A stretch of 32,106 nt of DNA from an uncultured Anaerocolumna sp. GTDB taxonomy: Bacteria > Bacillota > Clostridia > Lachnospirales > Lachnospiraceae. Positions 1,904 through 28,487 of the stretch are shown piece by piece. Each line of letters starts with the position of its first letter. Within the stretch, counting starts at the first letter, position 1. Made by a program: the position numbers and the translations under genes. The stretch is from positions 1-32,106 of the forward strand of contig CALDJN010000389.1 in the NCBI GenBank assembly GCA_937901695.1, read 5' to 3'. The notes under the pieces were generated by a model. That model was not told the origin of the DNA, made no database searches, and was given only the letters and a program-made list of their open reading frames with translations.

Positions 1904-1929
1904 GAGGGTGCTTTACTACACTTATATTT

Positions 1930-1992
1930 GATTTGCATGCCAAAACTCTAATATAGTTTTTGAATGAATATAAGAGTTTTGACTCACAAATC
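1930..1992. repeat. Small palindromic repeat, family 2, copy 1
   Basis: GATTTGCATGCCAAAACTCT...AGAGTTTTGACTCACAAATC; arms and loop resemble 12717-12780. Confidence 0.8.
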
Positions 1993-2034
1993 ATATTTTC
2001 CTTTAAACACAATGTTTGATTCTTCCTATATATT

Positions 2035-11193: not shown

Positions 11194-11322
11194 TTTACTC
11201 TTATAGATATAAAAAACCCCAAAAGTGAAATAGCATTTCGGAGTTTAACTTATTTACAATTTCATTTCTATCTATTTTATTTGTCCATAAAACCATTATG
11301 TAAGTTAATTAATGAATAAACA

Positions 11323-11622
11323 GCTTTGCCCCCATAAACTTAAATTGACCTTCGAGGGTGTGGGACGCTATATGTTTCATGTGACTTTGGGAGAATTCCC
11401 AATGGTTCTTATACCATAGAAATCGCGCCAATCAGTGAAAATGGGGCTGTCTGAGGTGGCAACGCCACCGAGTTCTCCATTTTCACTGATGTTATAAGCG
11501 ATTCCTATGGTATTAGAACCATGGAATTCTCCAAGTGGAACATGAAACATATAGCGTCCCATACCCTTGAAGGTCTCTAAAAATTACATCGGGCAAAGCG
11601 TCCTTAGCGTCCTTAGCGTCCT
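11323..11622. repeat. 277-nt imperfect inverted repeat followed by three tandem 9-mers
   Basis: Arms GCTTTGCCC...GGTGGC (11323-11460) and GCCACC...GGGCAAAGC (11464-11599); AGCGTCCT(T) x3 at 11597-11622. Confidence 0.9.
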
Positions 11623-12649: not shown

Positions 12650-12716
12650 AACAACACCTATACCTTTCCTTTTAATTTTGCCTCACAGGGCTTTTTAAAC
12701 AATAGGTTCATATTTT

Positions 12717-12780
12717 GATTTGCGTATCAAAACTCTAGCATAGTTTATTGAATGAGTATAAGAGTTTTGACACGCAAATC
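12717..12780. repeat. Small palindromic repeat, family 2, copy 2
   Basis: GATTTGCGTATCAAAACTCT...AGAGTTTTGACACGCAAATC (19 of 20 positions complementary); similar to 1930-1992. Confidence 0.85.
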
Positions 12781-12860: not shown

Positions 12861-13059
12861 AGGGGCTGTTACAAAATGAAAAATGTCATTCTGAGAACCT
12901 TAGTTTGAAGAATCCCACGTTAAACTATCATTCTGAGAACCTTAGTTCGAAGAATCTCACGTTAAACTGTCATTCTGAGAACCTTAGTTCGAAGAATCTC
13001 ACATTAAAATGGGATTCTTCGCCACCTGGGCTCAGAATGACAGTTTTGCGACAACCCCT
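12861..13059. repeat. TGTC-tagged palindromic element, copy A, with three 42-nt tandem units
   Basis: Outer IR AGGGGCTGTTACAAAA / TTTTGCGACAACCCCT; units start at 12884, 12926 and 12968; right arm GATTCTTCGCC...GGCTCAGAATGACA. Confidence 0.92.
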
Positions 13060-13081
13060 TTTTTAAATAAATCTCTTTTAA

Positions 13082-14203
13082 TTATTTGCAATGGCTTCTT
13101 ACTATCTCATTCATCATATCCATCTTTTCTTCCATATCAGCAACCAATTTAAATTGAGTTCTTGCACGGTCCAAATTATGATGTTCCCTGTGAATTTTAA
13201 AATAAGTATCTCCTTCAAGGTAATCAGTAAGGAATCGTATACCACACTCTAAAGTTAAAAGTTTTGCAGAAAAAGCAAGTAATTCATATTCTTTCTTTGT
13301 TAATGTTTCCCCTGCCTCACTTAGGAAACCATCTGTATATTCTTCAAATAAATTAATATCCATATAAACTTTAGATAAATCTGTTTCATCTTCTGCTGCA
13401 GAGCTTGCACCAAAACGGATACTGTCACCAAAGTCATAGAAAACAGAACCGGGCATTACTGTATCAAGGTCTATAACGCAGATACCTTCATTGGTTTCAT
13501 TATCCATCATAATATTATTTAGCTTTGTATCATTATGGGTTACACGTAAAGGAATCTCTTTCTTTTCAATTAAGTCCACTACAATACTACAGTCATCTTT
13601 TCTGGATTTAACAAATTCAATTTCTTTCAGAACGTCTTTTACTCTTCCCATCTTATCTTCTGCCACTGCAATCTCAAAGTTTTTATAACGGTTTGCAGTA
13701 TTATGGAATTTTTCAATGGTTTCTGATAAAGTCTCTGCCGGATAGTCAGATAATAGCTTCTGAAATCTGCCAAATGCTTTAGCAGAATTATAGAAAAGCC
13801 CTGGTTTTTCGGCAGACTGGTAACAAGTTGCATCTTCAATAAATAGATAAGCTCTCCAACATTCCTTATCCGTATCCTCATAGAATAACTTTCCGTCTTT
13901 AGTTTTTACAATGGTCAGCGTTTCCCTTTCTGGATTACCACCGGCTTCTATAATTTTTTTACGTAAATGATTGGTTACACCTTCAATATTTTTCATTAAT
14001 GCTAAAGGATCTTTTAAAATGCTTGTATTAATACGTTGCAAAACATAGCGAATTGGAGGTTCCGTCTCTCTTCTAAAATATACTGCATAGGTTGAATTAA
14101 TATGACCCTGTCCAAGTGGCTCAATGTAAATAAACTCACCTGCAAAGTCAAATTTGTCCACAATTTCTGCTGTTATTTTAGCCTTCATTGTTCTGTTTTC
14201 CAT
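13082..14203 (-). CDS. APH-fold phosphotransferase, N-acetylhexosamine 1-kinase (NahK/LnpB)-like
   Basis: GQGHINSTY, YVLQRIN, RVTHNDTKLNN, VIDLDTVMPG, DFGDSIR, RFLTDYLEGDTYF, HNLDRARTQ; start moved to ATG 14203 (AAAGGA RBS). Confidence 0.8.
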   Translation of the reverse strand: MENRTMKAKITAEIVDKFDFAGEFIYIEPLGQGHINSTYAVYFRRETEPPIRYVLQRINTSILKDPLALMKNIEGVTNHLRKKIIEAGGNPERETLTIVKTKDGKLFYEDTDKECWRAYLFIEDATCYQSAEKPGLFYNSAKAFGRFQKLLSDYPAETLSETIEKFHNTANRYKNFEIAVAEDKMGRVKDVLKEIEFVKSRKDDCSIVVDLIEKKEIPLRVTHNDTKLNNIMMDNETNEGICVIDLDTVMPGSVFYDFGDSIRFGASSAAEDETDLSKVYMDINLFEEYTDGFLSEAGETLTKKEYELLAFSAKLLTLECGIRFLTDYLEGDTYFKIHREHHNLDRARTQFKLVADMEEKMDMMNEIVRSHCK

Positions 14204-14254
14204 ATCATATTCCTTTCTTTTGGTTTTGGTGCCTGGCACCATTTATTCCATTTA

Positions 14255-15181
14255 TTAATTCCACAAATTTTCCGGGTAGACACCATTTTCAATTTGTTTA
14301 CTGATAAATTTCACGATTTCTTCTTTATCCTCATGATAAGTTACGCCATACCATTTTGCAGTTGTATGAAGTACTTTAACATCACATTTCCCGTTATCAA
14401 TTAAATTTTGTACGACAGATGGTAAAAAGAATTCCGCTTTACTTAAAGTGCTTACATCTTGTTTAAAGAAATCCTTCATCTGTTTTTCTATTTCTACAAA
14501 AATATCCGGTGTAAAGCCCCAGCAGTTCATAGATACGGTGCTGTCAGAATCTATTGTCGTCCAGCCATCACCTTCCTCATAAAATTGAACTTTTCCGCCA
14601 TTGTATTGTATCTTAGTTCTTTCTATTACATTCTTAAGGTAATTGTTTTCATCAGTTGTACATACACCTCTGGCAACATGGCCATTTTCTGTTAAAGTAT
14701 TCTTTAAGATAAAACCAGCCATTGCAAAATGATATTTATTGCCGGCTTCTCCCTTTTCTTTTAGGAAGTCAGCTAACTGTATAAAAGAATCTCTTCCATA
14801 GAAATCATCTGCATTAATAACAGCAAAGTTTTCATTTACCAAATCCTTGCAGCTATAAACAGCATGTGCAGTTCCCCATGGTTTCGTTCTTCCTTCTGGT
14901 GTAACTGTTCCTTCTGGAATTGTATCTATTTTTTGAAATGCATATTTAACATCTACTAATTTCTCAACACGTTTACCTACAGTGTCGCGAAATACATCAT
15001 AGTTCTCTTCTTTTATAATAAATACAACCTTATTAAAACCTGCTTTAATAGCATCATAAATGGAATAATCAATAATGAATTCACCATGTTTACCAACAGG
15101 ATCAATTTGTTTTAAGCCGCCATATCTGCTTCCCATTCCTGCTGCCATAATCACTAACGTTAAATTATTTGTTTTACTCAT
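14255..15181 (-). CDS. Sugar-phosphate nucleotidyltransferase (GT-A fold)
   Basis: LVIMAAGMGSRYGGLKQ, KPWGTAHA, FAVINADDFYG, WYGVTY; GAAGGAGG RBS. Confidence 0.85.
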   Translation of the reverse strand: MSKTNNLTLVIMAAGMGSRYGGLKQIDPVGKHGEFIIDYSIYDAIKAGFNKVVFIIKEENYDVFRDTVGKRVEKLVDVKYAFQKIDTIPEGTVTPEGRTKPWGTAHAVYSCKDLVNENFAVINADDFYGRDSFIQLADFLKEKGEAGNKYHFAMAGFILKNTLTENGHVARGVCTTDENNYLKNVIERTKIQYNGGKVQFYEEGDGWTTIDSDSTVSMNCWGFTPDIFVEIEKQMKDFFKQDVSTLSKAEFFLPSVVQNLIDNGKCDVKVLHTTAKWYGVTYHEDKEEIVKFISKQIENGVYPENLWN

Positions 15182-15400
15182 AGTATCCTCCTTCTAAATG
15201 TACAATAACTAGGCTTATCTATGTGTTCGTCTATATTTTAAGTATTTCTCTTATATACTATTTTATTTAATAAGAAGAAAAATTGCTATGAAATATAGTA
15301 TGATTATTAGTAAATTTGTTTGATGTTATATTATTTTACGGTTTTAATTGATTTCACTAACATCTTTTCTTACTTCCTATCATACATGGCAAATGGCAAT

Positions 15401-15441
15401 AAAAAGCCAAGGATAGGTATTGAAATACAAATTCTTGGCTT
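15401..15441 (-). terminator. Probable intrinsic terminator after the transglutaminase-like gene
   Basis: AAGCCAAGGAT / ATTCTTGGCTT stem (one mismatch on minus strand) ending in a U-tract on the minus strand. Confidence 0.5.
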
Positions 15442-15490
15442 GTTTAGCTTATTCTTTTTAATTGACCTTCAAGATTAATGTCAGCACTTG

Positions 15491-16354
15491 TTACTTTTTA
15501 TAACTTTCTTTACTCATAACATATTCCTTATTAAATTCCTCTATTTGAAACTCCTCATCCCTTACATGACCCGGAAAATCTTTCTCTGCCTTTAAGAAAA
15601 AATCATATGTCAATATATCTTCTCCATTCCAAGTCAGAGGATCATCCCAGGTACTATCAAAATTATACCATTTACCATCTAAATATACGATATTCCATCC
15701 ATGAGCTTCCCCATTTCCGGTTCCCGTTATAACTCTGCAGGGAATTCCTGCTTCGGTAAGCATTTTATAAGCCAAGGTCATGTAACCCTGACAGGTAGAG
15801 GTTTTTTCAAATAAGTTATCATAAGCAGAATATTTTTTCATATTAGTATCATAAGATGCATTTTCTACAATAAAATCATGTATTTTCTTTATCTTATCAT
15901 AATCACTAAGTTTTTCTATATTCCACTTATTAAAAAGTTTCTTAATCTTATCATCTACTTTTTTAGTTTCATCAGCAGTTTCATTATATTTAAACTGATA
16001 AGTAACAGTTAGAATTTTCCCCAACCCGCTAACTTGGGCATATATGCTTTCTACCTTATACTTAAGATAATCATAGTCACTGGAGGTTTTTTGGTCATCT
16101 ATAGAATAGGCCAAGTTTATAGCCTCCTCTGTAAACCAATCTATACTATCGAATTCGCCAATATACTGAATTACAAATTCTTCTTTTCCCTCTAACAGTG
16201 CCTGTCGAATCTCACTAATAAAGTCTTCTTCATGGGTTCTTTCTGTTGTCACCACATCATATACCCATTCAATTACTTTATATCTATCTTCAAGTTTATA
16301 TATTAATATAGCTAATAAAGCTATGGTGATAACGGTTTTTATAAATTTTTTCAC
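15491..16354 (-). CDS. Membrane-anchored transglutaminase-like (Cys-His-Asp) protein
   Basis: N-terminal hydrophobic segment; KIHDFI...YD, TCQGY, HGWNIV, DSTWDD; GTG 16354 preceded by AGGGGAG is preferred over ATG 16372. Confidence 0.8.
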   Translation of the reverse strand: MKKFIKTVITIALLAILIYKLEDRYKVIEWVYDVVTTERTHEEDFISEIRQALLEGKEEFVIQYIGEFDSIDWFTEEAINLAYSIDDQKTSSDYDYLKYKVESIYAQVSGLGKILTVTYQFKYNETADETKKVDDKIKKLFNKWNIEKLSDYDKIKKIHDFIVENASYDTNMKKYSAYDNLFEKTSTCQGYMTLAYKMLTEAGIPCRVITGTGNGEAHGWNIVYLDGKWYNFDSTWDDPLTWNGEDILTYDFFLKAEKDFPGHVRDEEFQIEEFNKEYVMSKESYKK

Positions 16355-16506
16355 AAAAGGCTCCCCTATCATTTTTATATAAATATCTGGCTTTCATTAT
16401 ATCTTATTTTTGATTCAATAACCATAAGAAAATAAAGTTATAGTTACAGTTCCGCCTGCGGGATGCCATATCTGAACTGTGGCAGATAATAAGTAAACTA
16501 CAAAAT

Positions 16507-16541
16507 AAAAGGAAGAATTACTTTACAGCATTCTTCCTTTT
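16507..16541. terminator. Terminator-like hairpin
   Basis: AAAAGGAAGAAT-11 nt-ATTCTTCCTTTT perfect 12-bp inverted repeat. Confidence 0.45.
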
Positions 16542-16574
16542 ACATATTATTGTTTAGAATAGCAGATACCATTA

Positions 16575-16909
16575 AGGTTTGTTTGCAAAATAAAAAATGT
16601 CATTCAGAGCAGACTTTACCACTCCGAGCAAGCTTTGTCATCCTGAGCAGACTTTGCCGCTCCGAGCAAGCTTTGTCATCCTGAGCAAGTTTTGTCATCC
16701 TAAGCAAGTTTTGCCATCCTGGGCAAGCTTTGTCATCCTGAGCAAGCTTTGTCATCCTGAGCAGACTTTACCGCTCCGAGCAAGCTTTGTCATTCTGAGC
16801 CGCAGGCGAAGAATCCCACTTTAAAATGAGATTCTTCGCCTTTTGGGCTCAGAATGACAGTTTTTGAAAGAAAGTAGCATTTAGAAGGTAGTGGAGTTTT
16901 TGCAACAAC
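16575..16909. repeat. TGTC-tagged palindromic element, copy B, with ten 19-nt tandem units
   Basis: Units of consensus TGTCATCCTGAGCAAGCTT at 16598-16787; core hairpin 16788-16859; outer ends AGGTTTGTTTGCAAAA and TTTTGCAACAAC. Confidence 0.92.
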
Positions 16910-16940
16910 TCCACTACCTTCTAAATGCTACTTTCTTTCA
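16865..16940. repeat. Perfect 34-bp inverted repeat with 8-nt loop, downstream of spoVG
   Basis: TGAAAGAAAGTAGCATTTAGAAGGTAGTGGAGTT-TTTGCAAC-exact reverse complement. Confidence 0.95.
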
Positions 16941-16965
16941 CTAGAAAATACTCTTATTATCTCTT

Positions 16966-17250
16966 TTATTCTACTGCAGCTTCTTCTACATTTACTTCAG
17001 CAGCTGCTTCATAGCTTTCTAAGATAATCTTTTGAATCTTATCCCTAGTTTCAGAATTGATTGGATGTGCGATGTCGCGGTATTCACCGTCTCCAGCTTT
17101 GCGGCTTGGCATTGCTATAAATAATCCCTTTTCACCTTCAATTACTTTAATATCATGAACAACAAATTCATTGTCCATGGTAATTGAAACAACCGCCTTC
17201 ATTTTTCCTTCTTTGCTTACTTTGCGAACTCGCACGTCAGTAATTTGCAT
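16966..17250 (-). CDS. spoVG: Septation regulator SpoVG
   Basis: [10 protein letters not shown]...[21 protein letters not shown]...[13 protein letters not shown]. Confidence 0.97.
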
Positions 17251-17344
17251 TTTGTAAGTCCCCCTTCTGAGTTTATCTTTGGTTTTTTATAGATAAAATT
17301 ATTTATCTTAACGAATTTAGGTACCTACAGGAATCTGTAGGATT

Positions 17345-18466
17345 TTATAAAACATATCTATTATTTTTCTCAACTACAATCTTAATTTCTCCATCTTCTC
17401 CCATGTAATTAGAGTTAGCACGAATGGTACATCGACTTTCTACAATACAATTTTCAATATGGGTATTGTTTCCTATATACACATCGTTCAAAATAATAGA
17501 ATTCTTAATAGTACAGTTATTGCCTATGTATACTTTTTTGTATAATATGGAATTTTCCACTTGACCATTAATAATACAGCCGCTTGAAATTAAGCTGTTT
17601 TTCACATTGGAACCCTGATTGTATTTGGCAGGAGGTAAATCCTCCACTTTTGAATATATATCCGGATACTGTCTAAAGAAATAATTCCTAATATCTTTCT
17701 TCAAAAAATCCAGGTTTGTCCTATAAAAAGCTTCTACAGTGGAGATATTATTCCAATAAGTATCCATGGTATAAGCATATACTTTCTTAACATCCTTATA
17801 TCGGATTAGAATATCCTTTACAAAATCAAATCGCACTTCGTCTGCTGCTTTTTCTAACAGCTCAATTAATTGGCGCCTGCGTATAATATATATTCCAGTA
17901 GACACAGTATTGGAATCTGTAACAATGGGTTTCTCATCAAACTGTATGATTCGTCCATCTTCCTCTGCTTTAATAACACCAAATCTACTGGCATCTTCCT
18001 CCTCAGGAAGTTTCGTACATACTACCGTAATATCTGCTCTTTTATTAATATGATATTCCAGCACTTTATTATAATCTAACTTATATATACCATCTCCTGA
18101 TGCAATAACTACATAAGGTTCATGGCTCTTTTTTAAGAAACTGATATTCTGATACATGGCATCTGCTGTTCCACGATACCAGAAGCTGTTTCTTGCTGTT
18201 ATAGTAGGTGTAAAAACGAATAAGCCCCCTTGTTTTCTTCCAAAATCCCACCATTTTGAAGAATTTAAATGTTCATTTAAAGATTTTGCATTATATTGTG
18301 TAATTACTGCAACTTTATGAATGTGGGAATTGGACATATTGCTTAATACAAAGTCGATTGCACGATAGCTTCCGGCGATAGGCATGCCTGCAATCGCTCT
18401 TTTGTTGGATAGTTCTCTCATCTTATTGCTATTCCCACCTGCTAAAACTAAGCCTATTGCTTTCAT
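17345..18466 (-). CDS. glgD: Glucose-1-phosphate adenylyltransferase subunit GlgD
   Basis: GlgC paralogue with degenerate nucleotide loop (LAGGNSNK), [20 protein letters not shown]; overlaps the glgC stop (ATGA). Confidence 0.92.
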
Positions 18467-19737
18467 AGTCTGTCACCTGCCTTAATCAAAGTTTCTCCGC
18501 TTTCAAGAATTCCGTTTGGATAATCTTCCGGCAGGGTAACCCCTTCAATAGCTGTATTTTTACCAATCTTTACACCGGATGGTATCTTTGTATTTTCAGC
18601 CACTGTGACGAGACCAAAGGAATAAATATTAGGATATAATTTATTCGGCACTTCTTCCCCTACACCTAATTGTGTGTTGGCTCCAATCACTGCCCCTTCA
18701 GCAATGATGGATTTATTAATGATCACGCCATCTTCAATTACTGCTGCCTTCATAATAATAGAATCTCGAATAATAGCGCCCTGTCCAATTGTGACTCCGG
18801 AGCCGATTACAGAATTATATACTTCTCCATAGATTTCAGTTCCTTCGCCTATGATTGCTTTATCAATGATAGCAGTATCTGCAATAAATTGAGGTGGTAT
18901 GGTATCAGCTTTGGTATAGATTTTCCAGAACTCTTCATATAAATTGAATTCGGGAATCAAATCTATCAGCTCCATATTGGATTCCCAGTATGAACCTAAG
19001 GTACCAACATCCTTCCAATATCCGTTATATTCATAAGCAAATACTCCATCACCTTTTTGATGACAATAAGGAATAATGTGTTTACCAAAATCACACCCCT
19101 TTTGTTCTGATAAGGCAATTAACGCATCCTTTAGTACATTCCATGAAAAAATATAGATTCCCATGGAAGCTAAATTACTTCGAGGTTGTGGTGGTTTCTC
19201 TTCAAATTCAATAATCCTCTTATTCTCATCAGTAATAACTACTCCGAATCTACTGGCTTCCTCCATTGGCACTGGTATGGTCGCTAATGTAATATCTGCA
19301 TTCTTAGATTTATGATATTCCAGCATAATCTCATAATCCATCTTATAAATATGATCCCCGCCAAGAATCAGAACATAATCAGGATTATAATATTCCATAT
19401 ATTCTAAGTTTTGATATATGGCATTGGCTGTTCCAGTATACCACTCACTGCAGGTACTCTTTTCATAAGGAGGAAGAATAGATACACCGCCAATATTTCG
19501 GTCCAAATCCCAAGGTATACCAATTCCTATATGTGTGTTTAAGCGCAAGGGCTGATACTGAGTCAATACTCCAACCGTATCTACACCTGAATTGATACAA
19601 TTACTAAGAGGGAAGTCAATGATTCTATATTTTCCCCCGAATGCAACTGCTGGCTTAGCTATATGGGATGTTAAAACTCCAAGTCTGGAGCCTTGTCCAC
19701 CAGCAAGAAGCATAGCTATCATTTCTTTTTTAATCAT
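18463..19737 (-). CDS. glgC: Glucose-1-phosphate adenylyltransferase
   Basis: [60 protein letters not shown]; ATG 19737 with GAGGTG RBS. Confidence 0.96.
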
Positions 19738-19765
19738 CAAATCACCTCTTATTCAGTATGAGACT

Positions 19766-19794
19766 ATTATACCATATATTTCTATTGTTGTGAA
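19766..19794 (-). promoter_or_regulatory. SigA-type promoter for glgC-glgD
   Basis: Minus strand TTCACA-17 nt-TATAAT with extended TG. Confidence 0.6.
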
Positions 19795-20062
19795 TGAATT
19801 TTACAATAATTTTCGAATTATTTAAATCTTTTACTACATATTGTATATTGTAATTATTACAAATATAAAATTTCTATAAAACATTAACATAATTACTTTG
19901 CTATTATCATTAATTATAATATTCCATATATTATAGGAATACTATAATTCTAACCGGTTTTTAATTATTACAGTTTTGCAGAATGAAAAAGCAATAAAGT
20001 GGAATACTTTTTAATTATCAGAACTTTTGTAAGTATGGGCTTCCCCATTGTTTAAATTTTAA

Positions 20063-20090
20063 TTGTATTTTTATAGGAAACGGTTATAAT
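20063..20090 (+). promoter_or_regulatory. SigA-type promoter for murC
   Basis: TTGTAT-16 nt-TATAAT. Confidence 0.5.
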
Positions 20091-20159
20091 AACACTATGT
20101 AATTATATCTGACACATAAATCAGATATAAATCAATTAATTAAGAATAGGAAGTGTCTT

Positions 20160-21563
20160 ATGTATCAAATCGATTTTAGCAAACCAAATAACGTACATTT
20201 TATTGGTATCGGCGGTATTAGTATGAGTGGTCTGGCCGAACTTTTACATACGATGGGTTTTCGTGTCAGTGGATCTGATTCAAAAATAAGTAAAATTGCA
20301 AAGCACTTAGAAAGTATCGGTATCAATATAATATATGGACAAAGGGCTTCAAATATTACACCTGATATGGAATTTGTCGTTTATACTTCTGCCGTTAAGG
20401 AAGATAACCCTGAATATCAGGCTGTTATACAGGCAGGTATCCCAATTATGGATCGTGCAGAACTTCTGGGTCAGGTAATGCTTCATTACACGGACTCCAT
20501 TGCCATCGCCGGAACTCATGGTAAGACTACAACAACTTCCATGTTGTCTCTTATCCTATTAAAAGCAAATTTAGATCCAACTATTTCAGTAGGTGGAATA
20601 TTGGATAATATCGGTGGAAATATCCGCATTGGGCATTCTGAACTTTTCATTACAGAAGCCTGTGAATATACCAACAGTTTCCTAAAATTTAATCCTGCAA
20701 GAAGTATTATATTAAATGTAGAAGCAGAACACCTGGATTTCTTTAAGGATTTAAATGATATCCGTAATTCCTTCCGCGAATTTGCAAAACGTCTTCCAAA
20801 GAATGGATTATTAATTATCAATGGGGATATTGAGAATGTAAGTTACTTTACAAAAGATTTACCTTGTAACGTGATAACCTACAGTGTAAATCACGAAAAG
20901 AGTCCTGTAGCAAATGCCTTAACTCACTATAGTGCAGCTAACGTAGACTTCGATGGCAAAGGCCACGGACATTATGATTTAATGGAAAATGGTAAACTGC
21001 TAACCCATATAGATTTAAATATTATCGGTATTCATAATGTTTCCAACTCCTTACCTGCTATTGCTCTGGCAAGAAGTTTGAATATATCTTTGGAGGTAAT
21101 TAAAGAAGCTTTGTTATCTTTTGAAGGTACAGAACGTCGCTTTGAATATAAGGGTGAAGTAGGTGGAGTTACCATTATTGATGATTATGCACATCATCCT
21201 ACCGAAGTAAGGGCAACCTTAGCCGCAGCTAAGAATTATCCTCATAAAACAACTTGGTGCGTATTCCAGCCACACACTTATACCAGAACAAAATCTTTCT
21301 TAAAGGATTTTGCAAAAGCTTTATCATTAGCTGATAAAGTTGTATTAGCTGATATCTATGCCGCCAGAGAAGTCAATCCTGGGGATATTTCATCAAAAGA
21401 CTTACAGAATGAATTACAAAAATTAGGGGTAGAAGCCCACTATTTTCCAAGCTTTGGCGAAATCGAAAATTTTTTATTACAAAATTGTACTAACGGCGAC
21501 TTGTTGATAACTATGGGCGCCGGAGACGTTGTAAACATTGGAGAGGCTCTCCTTGGTAAATAG
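20160..21563 (+). CDS. murC: UDP-N-acetylmuramate--L-alanine ligase
   Basis: HFIGIGGISMSGLA, GTHGKTTTT, EACEY, DDYAHHPTE, FQPHTYTRT, TMGAGDV. Confidence 0.97.
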   Translation: MYQIDFSKPNNVHFIGIGGISMSGLAELLHTMGFRVSGSDSKISKIAKHLESIGINIIYGQRASNITPDMEFVVYTSAVKEDNPEYQAVIQAGIPIMDRAELLGQVMLHYTDSIAIAGTHGKTTTTSMLSLILLKANLDPTISVGGILDNIGGNIRIGHSELFITEACEYTNSFLKFNPARSIILNVEAEHLDFFKDLNDIRNSFREFAKRLPKNGLLIINGDIENVSYFTKDLPCNVITYSVNHEKSPVANALTHYSAANVDFDGKGHGHYDLMENGKLLTHIDLNIIGIHNVSNSLPAIALARSLNISLEVIKEALLSFEGTERRFEYKGEVGGVTIIDDYAHHPTEVRATLAAAKNYPHKTTWCVFQPHTYTRTKSFLKDFAKALSLADKVVLADIYAAREVNPGDISSKDLQNELQKLGVEAHYFPSFGEIENFLLQNCTNGDLLITMGAGDVVNIGEALLGK

Positions 21564-21767
21564 TTATCCACATTATCCACAACCTTATCAACAATTTCAT
21601 TGTGATATGGTTGTGGATTTTTTAGTTCACATAATAAATTTTATCCTCAACCAAATAAATAATCAAAACTTTAACGATTTCCTTTAAAACTAGCCATTTC
21701 CTCATATTACAACATTAATTAACATATTTCTTACACAGACTTATCCACATTATCCACAATGTCCACA
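21502..21767. promoter_or_regulatory. DnaA-box cluster
   Basis: Perfect TTATCCACA at 21564, 21573, 21741 and 21750; near matches TTATCAACA (21585, and reverse at 21502), TTATCCTCA (21641), reverse AAATCCACA (21612), ATGTCCACA (21759). Confidence 0.88.
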
Positions 21768-21824
21768 AATGCCTTATGGGGAAGCTCTAACCCCACTTCA
21801 CCTATTTCAATCTTTTGAAACCTA

Positions 21825-21940
21825 TGATATAATGAGGCGGAATGAGGATAGTGCGAGACAAAGCACTCGCACGGCAAGCTAGTTTGCAAATTCCGATTGG
21901 AGCTATATATCATGAACACGTTTTTTGTTCATGATATAAT
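21825..21940 (+). promoter_or_regulatory. Two extended -10 elements and a structured leader upstream of the dnaD-like gene
   Basis: TGATATAAT at 21825-21833 and 21932-21940, with several hairpins between them. Confidence 0.5.
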
Positions 21941-22020
21941 GACCGTGACAAAGGTAAAATACGTGTTAATAGCAGAAGTTTTATAGTATGTATTCTGCAT
22001 AGAAAGGCTTGGTATAAGAA

Positions 22021-23145
22021 ATGAACACAATAACTTTACAATCCAATGGTACCTCTGAGAGTACTGTTATACCAAATATTTTTATAGACAGCTATATGCC
22101 CTCTGCAAATGGAGCTTATGTGAAGGTTTATATTTATTTACTACGTTGTATGGCCTCCGCAGACATGGAGATTACCATCTCTTCCATTGCTGATCATTTA
22201 GATGATACCGAAAAAGACATAATTCGAGCATTATGTTATTGGGAGAAGGTAAATTTACTTTCCCTGGTGAGAGATACTAATAATCAAATTGTATCCATTA
22301 TCATTAGCGATTTATCTGCGACTAAAGATAATCAAAATACAGAAGAATTTGCAACTACATCTACAATTTCACCTGCAATCTCACCTATAACCCCGCCATC
22401 CGTTCCAGAAGAGATTGAGGCAGCTCCTATTCCGCCAAATCATATCTTTGACAAACCGACTTACTCGGAGGCGCAGATTAAACAGCTGACTGGCAATGAT
22501 GAGGTGAAATGGTTACTAAATATTATTGAAATATACTTAGATCGTTTAATAAAGCCCATGGATCTCCAATTAATTTTATATTTGTATGAAAGTCTTGGAT
22601 TCTCAGCTGAACTGATTATGTACCTTTATGAATACTGTGTATCCAAAAACAAGAAAAATCCATCTTACATAGAAGCAGTTGCCTTATCCTGGGCAGAAGA
22701 GGGTATTGATACCGTAGAAAAAGCGGAGGCAGCTACTGTCCTTTATAACAGTAATTACAACGCAGTAAATAAAGCATTTGGATTAAACAGGGCACCTGGT
22801 AATGTTGAAAAACAGTTTATTAATAAATGGCTGAACAAATTTGGCTTCTCCATTGACATTATTGTAGAAGCCTGCAACCGTACTATTCTTATGACGCAAA
22901 AACCAGATTTTAAATATGCGGATAAGATATTAGAGAACTGGTTTAAAAAAGGCGTGAAGGATTTAAGCCAAGTTGCTAAATTAGACGAAGAGCATGCTAA
23001 GAATGTAAACTCTAAGGCAAATTCAGCTAAAGTAATTCCAGTAACCAAACCATCCCAATCTAACCGCTTTAATGCATTTCCACAAAGGACTTATACTGAC
23101 GAAGATTATTCTTCTATGGAGCAAAGGCTGCTAAATAAACAGTAG
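22021..23145 (+). CDS. dnaD: DnaD/DnaB-type replication initiation protein
   Basis: IPNIFIDSYMPSANGAYVKVYIYLL winged-helix N-terminus; two DnaB_2-like domains (YIEAVALSW, YADKILENW); upstream of the helicase loader ATPase. Confidence 0.82.
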   Translation: MNTITLQSNGTSESTVIPNIFIDSYMPSANGAYVKVYIYLLRCMASADMEITISSIADHLDDTEKDIIRALCYWEKVNLLSLVRDTNNQIVSIIISDLSATKDNQNTEEFATTSTISPAISPITPPSVPEEIEAAPIPPNHIFDKPTYSEAQIKQLTGNDEVKWLLNIIEIYLDRLIKPMDLQLILYLYESLGFSAELIMYLYEYCVSKNKKNPSYIEAVALSWAEEGIDTVEKAEAATVLYNSNYNAVNKAFGLNRAPGNVEKQFINKWLNKFGFSIDIIVEACNRTILMTQKPDFKYADKILENWFKKGVKDLSQVAKLDEEHAKNVNSKANSAKVIPVTKPSQSNRFNAFPQRTYTDEDYSSMEQRLLNKQ

Positions 23146-23154
23146 GAAATAGCC

Positions 23155-23283
23155 TGTCATTCTGAGCGTAGCGAAGAATCCCCACCATTCATAGTGGTGC
23201 TATTTGGCATTATAATTCAGTGCAATTTACTGCGAATAATCCCTTAAAAATAGATTCTTCGCAATAAATTGCTCAGAATGACA
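23155..23283. repeat. TGTC-tagged palindromic element, copy C, without outer IR
   Basis: TGTCATTCTGAGCGTAGCGAAGAATC...GATTCTTCGCAATAAATTGCTCAGAATGACA. Confidence 0.9.
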
Positions 23284-23313
23284 TAATTCAATCATCATAA
23301 GAAAGGAATAAAT

Positions 23314-24300
23314 ATGCCATTAAAAAATTTTCAATATAATAAAATATTGCGAGATTATGATGCAAAGCAGCTGGAGAGTAAGCACAATTTAGACCTTCGT
23401 ACGGAAGAGATATATAAAACCATTCCAGAGATGAAGGAAATTGACGATAAAGTCATAAGTAGTTCCATTGAAAGTGCAAGGCTTCTTTTATATGGTGATG
23501 AGGATGCCTTAAATTCATTGAAAAAAATCACCAAAGATGCCTCTAAGAAAAGGGCTCAGTTGTTAGAACAATATGGTTATCCAAAGGATTTTCTTCAGCC
23601 AGCCTATCATTGTCCGGATTGCAAAGATACTGGCTATATTGGTAAGGAAAAATGTCATTGCTTTAAGCAGGCTATCGTGGATATCGTTTATTCCCAGTCT
23701 AATATAAAAACTGCCATTGCTGTAGAAAACTTTTCCGCTTTCTCTTATGAATTTTATTCTGATGATTATGTGGAACCAAGTATAAAAATGACACCAAGAC
23801 AAAATATTAAAAAAGCTGTACAAGCATGTAAACATTTTATTGAAAACTTTGATCATGAATATAATAACCTTTTACTTTATGGTAATACTGGTGTTGGAAA
23901 GACATTTTTAGCAAACTGTGTTGCCAAAGAACTATTGGACAGCGCTCATACTGTCATTTATTTAACAGCATTTCAGTTATTCGATATACTGGAGAAAAAT
24001 AAATTTGGTAAAAATGAAGATAATTTTGAATCACAAAATCAATTCGAATATATTTTAGATTGTGACTTGCTAATCGTAGACGACTTAGGTACAGAATTAA
24101 ATAACACTTTTGTTTCCTCACAATTATACTTATGTATTAACGAGCGTTTCTTACGACGTAAAGCCACTATTATTTCTACTAATTTGTCTTTAGATAATAT
24201 AAATGCTAATTATAGCGAAAGGGTTTTTTCCCGTATCGCAAGTAATTATACCCTGTTGAAAATTGTCGGTGATGATATTCGACTAAAAAAACTATTTTAA
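23314..24300 (+). CDS. dnaC: DnaC/DnaI-like helicase loader ATPase
   Basis: Zn motif CPDCKDTG...CHC, Walker A GNTGVGKT, Walker B LLIVDDLGTE, IISTNL, ERVFSRI. Confidence 0.85.
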   Translation: MPLKNFQYNKILRDYDAKQLESKHNLDLRTEEIYKTIPEMKEIDDKVISSSIESARLLLYGDEDALNSLKKITKDASKKRAQLLEQYGYPKDFLQPAYHCPDCKDTGYIGKEKCHCFKQAIVDIVYSQSNIKTAIAVENFSAFSYEFYSDDYVEPSIKMTPRQNIKKAVQACKHFIENFDHEYNNLLLYGNTGVGKTFLANCVAKELLDSAHTVIYLTAFQLFDILEKNKFGKNEDNFESQNQFEYILDCDLLIVDDLGTELNNTFVSSQLYLCINERFLRRKATIISTNLSLDNINANYSERVFSRIASNYTLLKIVGDDIRLKKLF

Positions 24301-24320
24301 AAGTTTATTTGAGTTTCGCC

Positions 24321-24349
24321 TTGACTTACCATATTGATAATGGTATAAC
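24321..24349 (+). promoter_or_regulatory. SigA-type promoter for prs
   Basis: TTGACT-17 nt-TATAAC with extended TG. Confidence 0.7.
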
Positions 24350-24402
24350 GTTAATGGACATTTTCCCATTAACAATCAAACTTTATTGGAGGACGAATAA
24401 AA

Positions 24403-25572
24403 ATGCCACAGCAAGAAAAAATAATTGAAACCATTCCAGTGGGGCCTTTAGGAATAATCGCCTTAGAAAGTAGTAAGGCTCTTGGTCAAAAAGTAAATAA
24501 CTACATTGTAAGCTGGCGTAATGAAGTGAACAGTGAGCATACTTCCACCATTGCCTTTTCTGGTTATCAAAGAGATTCCTATTTAATCAGCGCTTCCTGC
24601 CCGAGATTTGGCAGCGGTGAAGCAAAAGGCATCATTAAAGAAACTGTACGTGGTGATGATTTATACCTGCTTGTAGACGTATGTAATTATAGTTTAACTT
24701 ATACAGTATGCGGACAAGTTAATCATATGTCTCCAGATGACCATTACCAAGACTTAAAAAGGATTATAGCAGCTGTTGGCGGCAAAGCTAGAAGAATAAC
24801 TGTAATCATGCCATTCTTATATGAAAGCAGGCAACATAAAAGAAGTTCCAGAGAATCTTTAGATTGCGCTTTGGCTTTACAGGAGTTAACCAACATGGGT
24901 GTAGAAAGTATCCTTACTTTTGATGCTCATGATCCCCGTGTTCAAAATGCGATTCCTTTAAAGGGCTTTGAAACAGTTCAGCCAACTTATCAGTTTATCA
25001 AAGCTTTACTTAAGAATGTACCGGACTTAGTTTTAGATCCAGATCATATGATGGTAATCAGTCCCGATGAAGGTGGTATGAGCCGTGCCGTTTATTTCGC
25101 AAGCGTACTTGGTATTGACCTTGGTATGTTTTACAAACGCCGTGATTATACTACAGTCGTTCACGGACGTAATCCTATTGTTGCTCATGAATTCCTTGGT
25201 GATGATATTGAAGGAAAAGATGTGTTAATTATTGATGACATGATTTCCTCAGGGGAAAGTATGATAGACGTTGCCATGGAATTAAGGAAGAGAAAAGCAG
25301 GAAGAATCTTTGTATGTGCAACCTTCGGATTGTTCACCAATGGTCTTGATAAATTTGATGAGGCTTATGAACAAGGATTAATCTATCGTGTATTGACTAC
25401 AAACTTAGTGTATCAACCATCTGAATTACTTTCCAAACCTTATTATATTAGTGTAGACATGAGTAAGTACATTGCTTTATTAATTGATACTCTAAATCAT
25501 GATGAATCCATCAGCGAATTCTTAAGCCCAACAGAACGTATCCAAAAAGTAGTAAACAAATACAAGAAGTGA
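24403..25572 (+). CDS. prs: Ribose-phosphate pyrophosphokinase (long form)
   Basis: RFGSGE, MPFLYESRQ, FDAH, SPDEGG, PRPP-binding IIDDMISSGES; GGAGG RBS. Confidence 0.93.
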   Translation: MPQQEKIIETIPVGPLGIIALESSKALGQKVNNYIVSWRNEVNSEHTSTIAFSGYQRDSYLISASCPRFGSGEAKGIIKETVRGDDLYLLVDVCNYSLTYTVCGQVNHMSPDDHYQDLKRIIAAVGGKARRITVIMPFLYESRQHKRSSRESLDCALALQELTNMGVESILTFDAHDPRVQNAIPLKGFETVQPTYQFIKALLKNVPDLVLDPDHMMVISPDEGGMSRAVYFASVLGIDLGMFYKRRDYTTVVHGRNPIVAHEFLGDDIEGKDVLIIDDMISSGESMIDVAMELRKRKAGRIFVCATFGLFTNGLDKFDEAYEQGLIYRVLTTNLVYQPSELLSKPYYISVDMSKYIALLIDTLNHDESISEFLSPTERIQKVVNKYKK

Positions 25573-25680
25573 TAGGAGTAGCCAAAGGGTATATTCCCAC
25601 TTGCCTATTGGTAAGTTTATCCCCCTTACGCTGCTTACTCATAACCTAATTTTCACTATGTGGCATTTCTATGAAAGAAT

Positions 25681-25960
25681 AGGCTGTTGCAAAGCTGTCA
25701 TTCTGAGCCTGAAAGGCGAAGAATCTCATTTTAAGGTGGGATTCTTCGCCTTTGGCTCAGAATGACAAAGCTTACTCAGAGTGACAAAGCCTGCCCAGAA
25801 TGACAAAGCTTGCTCAGTGTGGCAAAACCTGCTCAGAGTGACAAAGCTTGCTCAGTGTGGCAAAACCTGCTCAGGGTGGCCAAAGCCAGCTCAGTGTGGC
25901 AAAGCCTGCTCAGAGTGACAAAGCCAGCTCAAAATGACATTTTTGTTTTGCAGCAACCCT
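25681..25960. repeat. TGTC-tagged palindromic element, copy D (inverted relative to A and B), with nine ~19-nt tandem units
   Basis: Outer IR AGGCTGTTGCAAA / TTTGCAGCAACCCT; core hairpin 25696-25767; AAGCYTGCTCAGWGTGRCA-like units at 25768-25939. Confidence 0.92.
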
Positions 25961-28487
25961 ACTTTTTTGCTCCAATATCTGTGGCAGGATTTTCATCGAC
26001 AGTTTCGTCATTACCATCTAAACCATCATTTACCTCCCCCTCAAGACCATTGCTTATATCACCATTAGCCCCTCCATCTATATCTGCATCACCTTTATTT
26101 ATATCCTCTATATCTAAGCCTGATTGGTTATCAGTATCTACTTCAGGTTCTGTATCCTCATAAAATCCATCATCATTAGGTTCATTCCATTGGTCCCCTG
26201 AATCAGGGTCTGTATTAAAGTCTTGATTTTCACTATTATCTATATTTTCCTGATTACTTCCTTTTCCTTTGTTATCCTGATTTTCAATAGTGTTCTGATT
26301 ATTAGAGTCTTCTAGATTATTAACCGAATCTTTCTCCGTTTCCTCCACTTCCTCCTTCACTTCTTCTTCCGGAGGTCGATTATCTACATAAGGTATAAAT
26401 TTTTTATATTCTAAGTCTTTATGTATTTTATCCATATAAGTTTTCCATATAGTACCTGGGTAGTTAGAACCATATAGGTTGCCCAGAGACTTTGGAATGT
26501 CATACCCAACCCATACTCCTGTAGTGTAATAAGGGGTATACCCTACAAACCAGCCATCTTTGTTATCATTTGTTGTTCCGGTTTTACCGGCACTGGGCAT
26601 ATTCTCCAAAGCTAAACCTCTTCCTGTTCCCCTTGTTATGACACCCTCTAATACGTTTGTCATCATCCTTGCTGCATTGGTTTCATAGATTCGCTTTTGC
26701 TTATTGGTTTCACCTACAACTTCATTTCCTTCTGCATCTAATATCTTTATAATACAGGTAGGCTCGCGAAAGACTCCGTCATTTTCTAAGGCAGCATAAG
26801 CTGAGGTTAGTTCAACTGGGCTTGTTCCTATTGTAAAACCTCCTAAAGATGCTGCAGGTATATAATCTTTTTTATCAATTTTAGAAAAATTCATATTTAG
26901 TAAATAGGATAGTCCGGCTTTAGGAGTTAACTCTTCAAACATTTTCCAAGCTATGGTATTCTTTGATAATTCAATTGCCCTTCTTAATTCCATTTTACCG
27001 GAATAGCCTCCGCCGGCATTAGAAGGTCCATCTTTTATGGGTTCATCAACAACTATATTGTCGGGATAATACCCTTTCTCAAAGCTAGGCGTATATACGA
27101 TAAGTGGTTTTATGGCACTTCCCGGCTGCCTAAAGCTTTGATATCCTCTGTTTAAGGTATAACCGTTATATTCCTGGGACCTTCCTCCTACAATGGCAGC
27201 CACTTTACCGGTTGCGTTGTCTATACTAACGGCTGCTCCCTGCAATGTATAGATTCCTTCTTTATTCACTTCTTTATAATCTTTTAAAGTATCATCAACT
27301 GCTTGCTGTAGTTGTTTTTGTTTCTTTAAATCAATGGAGGTGTAGATACGATATCCTTTAAAATACAGAGACTTTTGAACCTTATTATATAAATCATAAT
27401 ACTGTTCCTCGTATCTTTCCTGTTGTTCTTTATTCTCAAACTGGTATTTGAATTCAAAACCCTGCTTTTCCATCAGAGCTCTTGTGGCACAATGATATAC
27501 ATAAGTATCTACATAATTGTTTTTTTTCTCTTTACTTAAAGAAAGTTTAATATCCTGGCTGGCAGCCTTATTGTATGCTTCCAGTCCTATCCGGCCATCA
27601 TTATACATCTGCCCCAGAATACGATTGCGCCTGCCTATGGTATTATCCATATGATTTAAAGGATTATAGAGGGTGGGATTATTGGGTATAGCACATAAAA
27701 ATGCGATTTCTGACAGGGTAAGGTCTTTGGATTTCTTACTAAAATATCCTTTACTTGCTGCTTCTATACCATAATAACCATTAGCGAAGTAAATATTATT
27801 CAAATAAAACTCCATAATATCTTCTTTGTTATATTTTTTCTCTAACTCAATAGCAATAAATATTTCTTTTAATTTTCTTTCATAGCTTACTTCATTGCTA
27901 AGGAATATATTTCTTGCCAGCTGCTGGGTAATAGTGCTGGCACCTTGGGTTATCTCACCTTCATTTTTAATAAGAGCTGTCATAGCCCTGATAATAGCCA
28001 GCAGGTCTACCCCCTCATGTGACATAAACTTTTTATCTTCAATAGAAATCATAGCGTCAATTACTGTGTCTGGAATATCTTTATACTCCAGGTAATATAC
28101 ATCTTTTTCTCCCTTTAGTACAGAGGATAGTTTTCCATTTACATCATATACTAAGCTGGTTTCTGTCTGGCGGAAAGTATCCCTGTCAGACATTCTGACT
28201 ACCTCCTGGGCTTCTTTTTGATATCGGATGATGGTATCACCGTATTTAAAATAAATGAACAAGCCTGCTATCAAAACACATAAAGATAGAATTAATAGCA
28301 TAATTAGAAAAGACCAGCCTATTGTTTTACCGAAAGAACGTTTTTCTTTTTTACTGGCTTGTTTCTTATTCTTATTCTGTTTCGATTTGTGATTCGTCTT
28401 TTTATTAGTATTCATGCTGTTTTTTTTATTTGTCCTCTTATTCTTTTGACTTGTATTTGTTCTTGAATTCGATGCTGATTTATTCAT
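25959..28487 (-). CDS. Class A penicillin-binding protein (PBP1A-type)
   Basis: TM anchor; transglycosylase motifs EDKKFMSHEG, GASTITQQL, RKLKE; transpeptidase motifs SAIK, SKN, KTGT; acidic C-terminal tail. Confidence 0.93.
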   Translation of the reverse strand: MNKSASNSRTNTSQKNKRTNKKNSMNTNKKTNHKSKQNKNKKQASKKEKRSFGKTIGWSFLIMLLILSLCVLIAGLFIYFKYGDTIIRYQKEAQEVVRMSDRDTFRQTETSLVYDVNGKLSSVLKGEKDVYYLEYKDIPDTVIDAMISIEDKKFMSHEGVDLLAIIRAMTALIKNEGEITQGASTITQQLARNIFLSNEVSYERKLKEIFIAIELEKKYNKEDIMEFYLNNIYFANGYYGIEAASKGYFSKKSKDLTLSEIAFLCAIPNNPTLYNPLNHMDNTIGRRNRILGQMYNDGRIGLEAYNKAASQDIKLSLSKEKKNNYVDTYVYHCATRALMEKQGFEFKYQFENKEQQERYEEQYYDLYNKVQKSLYFKGYRIYTSIDLKKQKQLQQAVDDTLKDYKEVNKEGIYTLQGAAVSIDNATGKVAAIVGGRSQEYNGYTLNRGYQSFRQPGSAIKPLIVYTPSFEKGYYPDNIVVDEPIKDGPSNAGGGYSGKMELRRAIELSKNTIAWKMFEELTPKAGLSYLLNMNFSKIDKKDYIPAASLGGFTIGTSPVELTSAYAALENDGVFREPTCIIKILDAEGNEVVGETNKQKRIYETNAARMMTNVLEGVITRGTGRGLALENMPSAGKTGTTNDNKDGWFVGYTPYYTTGVWVGYDIPKSLGNLYGSNYPGTIWKTYMDKIHKDLEYKKFIPYVDNRPPEEEVKEEVEETEKDSVNNLEDSNNQNTIENQDNKGKGSNQENIDNSENQDFNTDPDSGDQWNEPNDDGFYEDTEPEVDTDNQSGLDIEDINKGDADIDGGANGDISNGLEGEVNDGLDGNDETVDENPATDIGAKK

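What the first reader, a model, noticed from the sequence alone, without database searches (positions are those of the whole stretch)
12861..25960. Composite palindromic element family that grows tandem arrays on one fixed side
Seen: copies A (12861-13059), B (16575-16909) and D (25681-25960, inverted) share one layout: outer IR GG..TG(T/C)T(G/A)CAAAA, an A-rich linker, a tandem array, a core hairpin TGTCATTCTGAG..GAAGAATC-loop(TTAAAATG)-GATTCTTC..CTCAGAATGACA, then G(T/C)TTT and the outer IR. In all three the array is on the same side and each unit starts at the TGTC tag, but unit length differs: 42 nt (whole left arm plus loop) in A and 19 nt (13 nt of arm plus 6 nt) in B (x10) and D (x9). 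Established, from memory: the core resembles CGTC/TGTC-tagged REP-like palindromes. Inference: polarised expansion registered at one position suggests repeated nicking and re-synthesis by an enzyme encoded elsewhere rather than random slippage; the outer IR may be IS-derived. This is my best candidate for an undescribed system in the window.
Basis: partly seen in the sequence, partly recalled or inferred. Interest (0 to 1): 0.75.

Follow-up and report, generated by a model that had tools for sequence, protein, structure and literature searches.

The report
Nuclease-target hairpins wrapped in transposon ends
The repeats are real: hundreds of copies of a known class of bacterial DNA hairpin, some wrapped in the ends of an IS1182-type transposon, carry strain-variable tandem duplications across the hairpin's tagged end, likely as repair scars left by a small single-strand nuclease whose gene lies elsewhere in this genome between two of the same hairpins.

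Summary
A, B and D are real, with the stated units (2x42, 10x19, 9x19 nt). The 'core hairpin' is two inverted TGTC-tagged REP monomers; the genome holds 653 (shuffles 1-2). A 97-aa Ssn-type GIY-YIG gene on another contig is bracketed by these REPs. It was found in 1 of 61 genomes searched, the only one with hundreds of the repeat. The outer IR matches IS1182 ends; the four sites are empty in the two closest congeners.

Arrays cross a tag end (73) rather than lie inside the dimer (3; about 44 expected) and are rare at other hairpins (5/125). Copy number at B and D differs in other strains. Two claims fail: arrays occur at either end of the composite (14 of 26 use the short-linker side), and unit ends are not pinned to one position (0-68 nt upstream of the tag).

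Best reading: Ssn cuts just 5' of the tag and microhomology repair duplicates across it (inferred, 0.6); rival is hairpin-stalled slippage. The system is known (2013 REPs, 2025 Ssn). Arrays and IS1182 wrapper were not found in print. This scan had already noted the one-sided arrays on other DNA.

The parts
12862..12876 (+). Copy A, left outer IR (IS1182-type end), followed by 7-nt A-rich linker
   Evidence: same motif as IS1182 remnant end in L201
12884..12967 (+). Copy A, two 42-nt units (whole left REP plus spacer plus 1 upstream nt)
   Evidence: near-identical array at C16
12968..13042 (.). Copy A, head-to-head REP dimer, tags outward
13044..13058 (-). Copy A, right outer IR with 1-nt linker
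16576..16590 (+). Copy B, left outer IR (degenerate), 7-nt linker follows
16598..16787 (+). Copy B, ten 19-nt units; one more unit in run X6
16788..16859 (.). Copy B, REP dimer
16860..16894 (.). Copy B, about 36-nt insertion that is an inverted copy of the outer flank, joined just 5' of the right tag; absent in run X6 (joint ambiguous by 8 nt)
   Evidence: (I20), table 5
16895..16911 (-). Copy B, right outer IR
23155..23283 (.). Copy C, REP dimer with long spacer, no outer IR, no array
   Evidence: empty site in G004 and G025
25682..25694 (+). Copy D, outer IR on the short-linker side
25696..25767 (.). Copy D, REP dimer
25768..25939 (-). Copy D, nine 19-nt units; 38 nt more in runs X6 and X11
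25946..25959 (-). Copy D, outer IR on the long-linker side; its first base is the last base of the stop codon of ORF 25959-28487

Best explanation
These are head-to-head pairs of TGTC-tagged REP hairpins, a subfamily of which sits between IS1182-type ends and likely spread as a miniature non-autonomous element, and their tandem arrays are short duplications that cross the tag and are likely scars from repair of cuts made by the genome's Ssn-type nuclease just 5' of that tag. Shown: the anatomy, 653 monomers, the REP-bracketed nuclease gene, the match to IS1182 ends, empty orthologous sites, the tag-side bias, strain variation. Inferred steps: (1) the nuclease binds a REP hairpin exposed as single-stranded DNA and cuts a few nt 5' of TGTC, as shown in vitro for four homologs (PMC11893778); (2) the free 3' end is extended into the REP, stalls, and re-anneals upstream at a microhomology, so the unit is a variable piece of flank plus tag plus a variable piece of REP; (3) ordinary slippage or unequal recombination then changes copy number; (4) whole elements, arrays included, are copied to new sites. 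Either end of a dimer can do this because each strand carries one correctly oriented REP. The arrays are probably functionless; the dimers probably act as terminators or mRNA stabilisers.
For: Nuclease: 97 aa, Pfam GIY-YIG only, Y9/Y20/E67 spaced like SsnA Y6/Y17/E64 and conserved in 137, 148 and 150 of 150 relatives, bracketed by tag-outward REPs. Of 80 metagenome homolog loci, 42 have this REP and 53 a REP of the class on both sides; 0 of 73 control windows. Gene in 1 of 61 genomes, which has 475 exact REPs against 9, 9, 1 and 0 in the other 57. Polarity: 73 end-crossing against 3 internal arrays on 166 dimers, 43.6 internal expected; solo REPs 15 tag-side against 2 tail-side of 74; other intergenic hairpins 5 of 125, and 3 of 53 strong ones, against 59 of 166 dimers; relic dimers in G004 and G025, where no Ssn was found, 0 of 16 against 47 of 147. 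Tag-side arrays also lie beside Ssn homologs in other organisms. The fold-back at B places a free 3' end at about -1 from the tag. Wrapper: 16-nt identity to an IS1182 remnant end (L201), related ends on 8 of 8 examined full-length IS1182-like copies in G023 with similar A|T flanks; spacer family shared by 18 of 27 two-ended composites against 18 of 87 bare dimers.
Against: Upstream unit ends scatter (0-68 nt, median 9); no enrichment near the tag over all 65 families (43 seen, 41 simulated, P 0.32) and weak for periods of 30 or more (19 of 35, P 0.04). No age gradient once the outermost unit is dropped (18 against 9, P 0.25). The relic control is small, older, less stable (median -23 and -18.5 against -27.6 kcal/mol), phylogenetically non-independent, and one relic (L245) shows a degenerate extra unit by eye. 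Counts include inherited units. The fold-back is one clear case and can arise by template switching alone. The published SRM pattern matches 0 of 653 monomers. No intact IS1182 transposase was found in G000 (81% complete). No cleavage by this protein was tested.
Confidence: 0.6

Rival explanations
1. No nuclease is needed: the polymerase stalls at the foot of the long dimer hairpin, which coincides with the tag, and slips back to a microhomology; the nuclease only explains why the repeat is abundant.
For: Dimers are very stable hairpins whose base is the tag; unit ends scatter; A-type units end at a near-repeat between the tag and the inner end of the partner REP; deletion products between short repeats exist; intergenic minisatellites without tags are common in this genome (0.42-0.66 per kb against 0.10 and 0.34 in G004 and G025).
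Against: Other hairpins rarely have such arrays (5/125); solo REPs, whose weak hairpin does not include the tag, are biased 15 to 2; relic dimers lack arrays (0/16); no replication-strand bias (22 against 17).
Confidence: 0.25
2. A transposase makes the arrays: the REP-associated tyrosine transposase on C440 by cut and re-ligation (as modelled for BIMEs), or an IS1182 transposase acting at the outer ends.
For: A RAYT is present; tandem BIME amplification by TnpA-REP has been modelled (PMC3333891, passages).
Against: The RAYT is flanked by a different repeat, GGTGCCWGGCACC; most array-bearing dimer ends have no IS end nearby (55 of 73); arrays cross the tag, not the IS tip.
Confidence: 0.08
3. 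The arrays are selected working parts, such as tunable regulators of readthrough or decoy sites that titrate the nuclease.
For: Dimers are enriched between convergent genes (43 of 128 against 170 of 1325 intergenic regions); some 19-nt units recur at many loci.
Against: 65 unrelated unit families of 13-91 nt with no helical phasing; units degenerate, do not fold and vary between strains; most dimers have none.
Confidence: 0.05
4. The arrays are assembly artefacts of a fragmented metagenome assembly.
For: 462 contigs; contig C150 is an inverted self-duplicate.
Against: Units differ from each other; contigs of independent studies anchored in unique flank run into arrays B and D.
Confidence: 0.02

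Closest known systems
Ssn GIY-YIG single-strand nucleases with NTS / Ssn-related motifs (Chenal et al. 2025, PMC11893778)
   Same: Small single-domain GIY-YIG gene bracketed by oriented hairpins; hundreds of intergenic copies; tag 5' of the stem, where the enzyme cuts.
   Different: Stem class TGTCATTCTGAG..GAAGAATC is missed by the published SRM pattern (0/653); low-GC Gram-positive host by gene content; tag-crossing arrays and IS1182 wrapper not mentioned ('tandem' occurs 0 times in the main text).
CGTC/TGTC-tagged REPs (Di Nocera et al. 2013, PMC3733652)
   Same: Unpaired TGTC tag, stem opening with AT, short tail, head-to-head heterodimers, intergenic; some dimers enclosed in a larger palindrome (H. 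neapolitanus, A. variabilis); clusters reiterated in tandem with flanking DNA described for GTAG families.
   Different: Long branched loops; 'Firmicutes' and 'Clostridi' occur 0 times in that text; enclosing palindrome traced here to IS1182 ends; partial-REP units. Its Figure 2 consensus could not be seen.
REPINs / BIMEs with RAYT (PMC3116915, PMC3333891)
   Same: REP doublet as the unit; local tandem amplification attributed to a nick-primed process.
   Different: GTAG tag and HUH transposase there; whole REPs are amplified, not partial ones; the RAYT here has its own repeat.
IS1182-family MITEs
   Same: Ends match IS1182 terminal repeats; no coding capacity; sites empty in congeners.
   Different: Interior is an Ssn-type REP dimer; no target duplication; no cognate transposase found in this assembly.
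Neisseria NIME arrays of dRS3 (PMC1797815)
   Same: Same repeat superfamily; arrays vary in length between strains.
   Different: NIMEs alternate whole dRS3 with varied spacers; here head-to-tail copies of a tag-crossing fragment.

Membership tests
Ssn / SRM | Single-domain GIY-YIG protein under 150 aa in the genome | tested here: met
   97 aa, PF01541 E 1e-16
Ssn / SRM | Catalytic Tyr, Tyr, Glu as in SsnA (Y6, Y17, E64) | tested here: met
   Y9, Y20, E67, same spacing, conserved; no direct alignment to SsnA was made
Ssn / SRM | Gene flanked on both sides by the hairpin | tested here: met
   42-53 of 80 homolog loci
Ssn / SRM | Repeat matches the published SRM pattern | tested here: not met
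   0 of 653; 2 of 80 homolog loci, with proteins 64-65% identical to this one, carry matching motifs
Ssn / SRM | Protein assigned to CDD cd10448 | not testable with these tools
   no CDD library
Ssn / SRM | Strand-specific ssDNA cleavage 5' of the hairpin | not testable with these tools
   needs biochemistry
CGTC/TGTC REP | Unpaired 4-nt tag, stem starting AT, short unpaired tail | tested here: met
   monomer folds
CGTC/TGTC REP | 8-9 bp stem with 4-5 nt loop | tested here: inconclusive
   5 bp plus bulge plus 3 bp in short forms; many long-loop forms
CGTC/TGTC REP | Head-to-head dimers, intergenic | tested here: met
   166 dimers; 290 intergenic regions hold a REP
IS1182-derived MITE | Terminal repeats match an autonomous IS1182 | tested here: met
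   L201 identical over 16 nt; related ends in G023, G004 and L269
IS1182-derived MITE | Empty orthologous sites | tested here: met
   A, B, C, D absent in G004 and G025; flanks too diverged to read the exact target
IS1182-derived MITE | Target-site duplication | tested here: not met
   2-nt duplication in 5 of 45, complementary first flank bases in 32 of 45; G023 IS copies also show aa|tt flanks
IS1182-derived MITE | Cognate transposase in the genome | tested here: inconclusive
   only a 27-bit fragment in an 81% complete assembly
REPIN/BIME with RAYT | GTAG tag and RAYT gene flanked by the same REP | tested here: not met
   tag is TGTC; RAYT flanked by another repeat

The most novel reading that the evidence does not exclude
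Ssn nucleases cut their own host chromosome in vivo and act as site-directed generators of minisatellites at hundreds of loci; and Ssn-target hairpin pairs have been captured between IS1182 ends in several phyla, forming hybrid elements moved by one enzyme and remodelled by another.
Probability: 0.45. Interest if true: 0.6.

Novelty: new variant of a known kind. Interest (0 to 1): 0.4.

Why it matters
The role of Ssn nucleases outside Neisseria, and how a plain nuclease relates to the spread of its repeats, are open (PMC11893778, discussion). This genome has one Ssn gene, hundreds of targets and dozens of independent duplication scars, while its closest congeners keep the hairpins but no detected gene, so the link can be tested directly. 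It also adds a stem class that the published search pattern misses, a candidate ssDNA cutter with a new specificity, and a source of strain-typing loci.

Tried and rejected
Published SRM pattern: 0/653, 2/80 homolog loci. Fixed register of unit ends: rejected; a looser first pass was contaminated by chance tags and array members and was not used. Polarised growth: apparent gradient (22 against 5) vanished without the outermost unit. Replication-strand bias by GC skew: none (22 against 17). Helical phasing of periods: none. Tag-free minisatellites near REPs: only 0.66 against 0.42 per kb, inconsistent across length bins. Ssn genes inside IS1182 ends: 0 of 80 loci. IS1182 origin of the wrapper outside Bacillota: 14 transposase loci checked, only L269 clear and L281 weak. 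'Empty' wrappers in G000 (C28, C414, C418, probably C448) read as deletion products; short stand-alone GGCTGTTGCA palindromes occur in 20 of 31 congeners, so insertion of dimers into existing mini-elements is not excluded. Rfam: no match in the window. PDB sequence search: none. Single-sequence fold was low confidence, pLDDT 46, unused. The record around L034 was not held. RNA run X11 is contigs only and cannot show strand or unit-length RNAs. A joint skipping copy C in X10 (depth 6, side 30) may come from a relative and was not counted. That some IS1182 members target palindromes is recalled; one search found no paper.
Full report
Observation. A fourth copy, C, at 23155-23283 has no outer IR or array. 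The window is contig C389 of a 3.2-Mb, 462-contig, 34% GC assembly, 81% complete.

Anatomy. The core is two inverted monomers, each TGTC tag, ATTCT stem, variable loop, AGAAT, tail; the monomer leaves the tag unpaired and the dimer folds into one long hairpin. The genome has 653 monomers (1-2 in shuffles) and 166 head-to-head dimers, enriched between convergent genes (43 of 128 against 170 of 1325). This is the CGTC/TGTC REP class (PMC3733652: passages, section 6 and part 1 of section 17 read; figures not held).

The enzyme. A GIY-YIG search gave UvrC-sized and 97-aa hits. The small gene (C18:568-861, minus) is bracketed by two of these REPs with tags outward. It has the SsnA catalytic spacing. 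Of 80 metagenome loci of homologs, 42 have this REP and 53 a REP of the class on both sides, against 0 of 73 control windows. Among 61 genomes only G000 has the gene and only G000 has hundreds of exact repeats (475; G004 9, G025 9, G027 1, others 0). SsnA and three homologs cut ssDNA a few nt upstream of their hairpin on one strand (PMC11893778: parts 1-5 of 11, passages, supplement 12, and a term search of 12 of 14 supplements, which did not hold this motif). The published SRM pattern matches 0 of 653 monomers, so this works like SRM/Ssn but is a separate stem class. A RAYT on C440 has its own repeat.

The outer IR. It is identical over 16 nt to the left end of an IS1182 remnant (L201) and related to the ends of IS1182-like elements in G023 (8 of 12 full-length copies examined), G004 and L269. 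Composites and the G023 copies share A|T flanks without a clear target duplication. Two-ended composites mostly share one 14-nt spacer family (18 of 27, against 18 of 87 bare dimers), which suggests spread from a founder. Sites A-D are empty in G004 and G025, which keep decayed dimers elsewhere, some with IR remnants. The same wrapper joined to a TGTC tag was found at 29 loci of the species collection, 16 closed by a second tag and IR, in Bacillota, an Uhrbacteria genome and deltaproteobacterial genomes, around different REP types; 9 of 17 such genomes searched have an Ssn homolog and 12 an IS1182-like match. It is rare: 1 of 400 other genomes of the phylum. No intact transposase was found in G000.

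The arrays. With a detector blind to the tag, 73 arrays cross a dimer end and 3 lie inside, where uniform placement predicts 43.6. Solo REPs show 15 tag-side and 2 tail-side arrays. Other intergenic hairpins show 5 of 125; relic dimers in the two congeners 0 of 16 against 47 of 147 (P 0.006, not independent). So the bias is relative to the tag. It is not a fixed side of the composite: 14 dimers have arrays at both ends, and 14 of 26 array-bearing composites use the short-linker side (by eye; one duplicate on the self-inverted contig C150 dropped). Nor is there one register: 101 arrays fall into 65 unit families of 13-91 nt, each with 0-68 nt of non-REP sequence before the tag (mutation inflates this figure). 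There is no strand bias and no robust age gradient.

Strain variation. Contigs of run X6 anchored in unique flank have one more unit at B and lack B's 36-nt inverted insertion; X6 and X11, from different studies, have 38 nt more at D. Eight runs were laid in two calls (seven distinct), all contigs. The insertion at B reads as a fold-back of a 3' end at about -1 from the tag; it is the only clear case found.

Mechanism. Most likely (0.6, inferred): the nuclease cuts 5' of the tag, the 3' end is extended into the REP and re-anneals upstream at a microhomology, giving a tag-crossing duplication; slippage then varies the count; composites are copied with their arrays, probably by an IS1182 transposase. 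The main rival (0.25) is polymerase stalling at the hairpin foot with no cut; scattered unit ends fit it, the three controls do not. A nick-primed model exists for BIMEs (PMC3333891, passages), tandem REPIN clusters are known (PMC3116915, passages), and NIME arrays vary between strains (PMC1797815, passages); PMC3184786 (passages) added nothing specific.

Novelty. Ten literature searches found no description of tag-crossing arrays at Ssn repeats or of IS1182-ended REP dimers; subscription papers, ISfinder and two supplements were not seen. REP dimers inside larger palindromes are described in PMC3733652. Earlier notes of this scan report the same one-sided arrays in other genomes; none was returned for the IS1182 wrapper. 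Verdict: new variant of a known kind, interest 0.4.

Noticed in passing
window 11316-11605: A second MITE-like element of about 290 nt with 77-nt inverted arms, between a Fic-like gene and galE; BLAST finds about 32 loci in the genome.
   Followed up: partly
window 1927-1996 and 12714-12780: A third dispersed palindrome of about 70 nt, 17-19 loci; the copy beside A is absent in G004 and G025.
   Followed up: partly
L003 1190-2090 (G000 C440): REP-associated tyrosine transposase (NF047646, above cut-off) flanked by GGTGCCWGGCACC palindromes; 57 exact copies in the genome, so a second REP-enzyme system coexists.
   Followed up: partly
L001 about 870-1070: Degenerate array of about 30-nt units between the upstream REP and the nuclease start; also present by position in L034.
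   Followed up: no
G000 intergenic DNA: Tag-free minisatellites are frequent (0.42-0.66 per kb against 0.10 in G004 and 0.34 in G025 samples), many within 60 nt of a REP.
   Followed up: partly
G000, e.g. C83:1508, C440, C379:1728: A second TGTC class beginning TGTCATTGCTATGAAAG supplies a 19-nt unit shared by many arrays; arrays often mix unit types.
   Followed up: partly
window 21742-21768: Three tandem TATCCACAA (DnaA-box-like, recalled) upstream of DnaD-like and DnaC-like genes; also in G004 and G025.
   Followed up: no
G000 C150: The contig is 99.99% identical to its own reverse complement, an assembly artefact.
   Followed up: yes
window 25959-25961: The stop codon of the penicillin-binding-protein-like ORF overlaps the first base of copy D's outer IR.
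   Followed up: no
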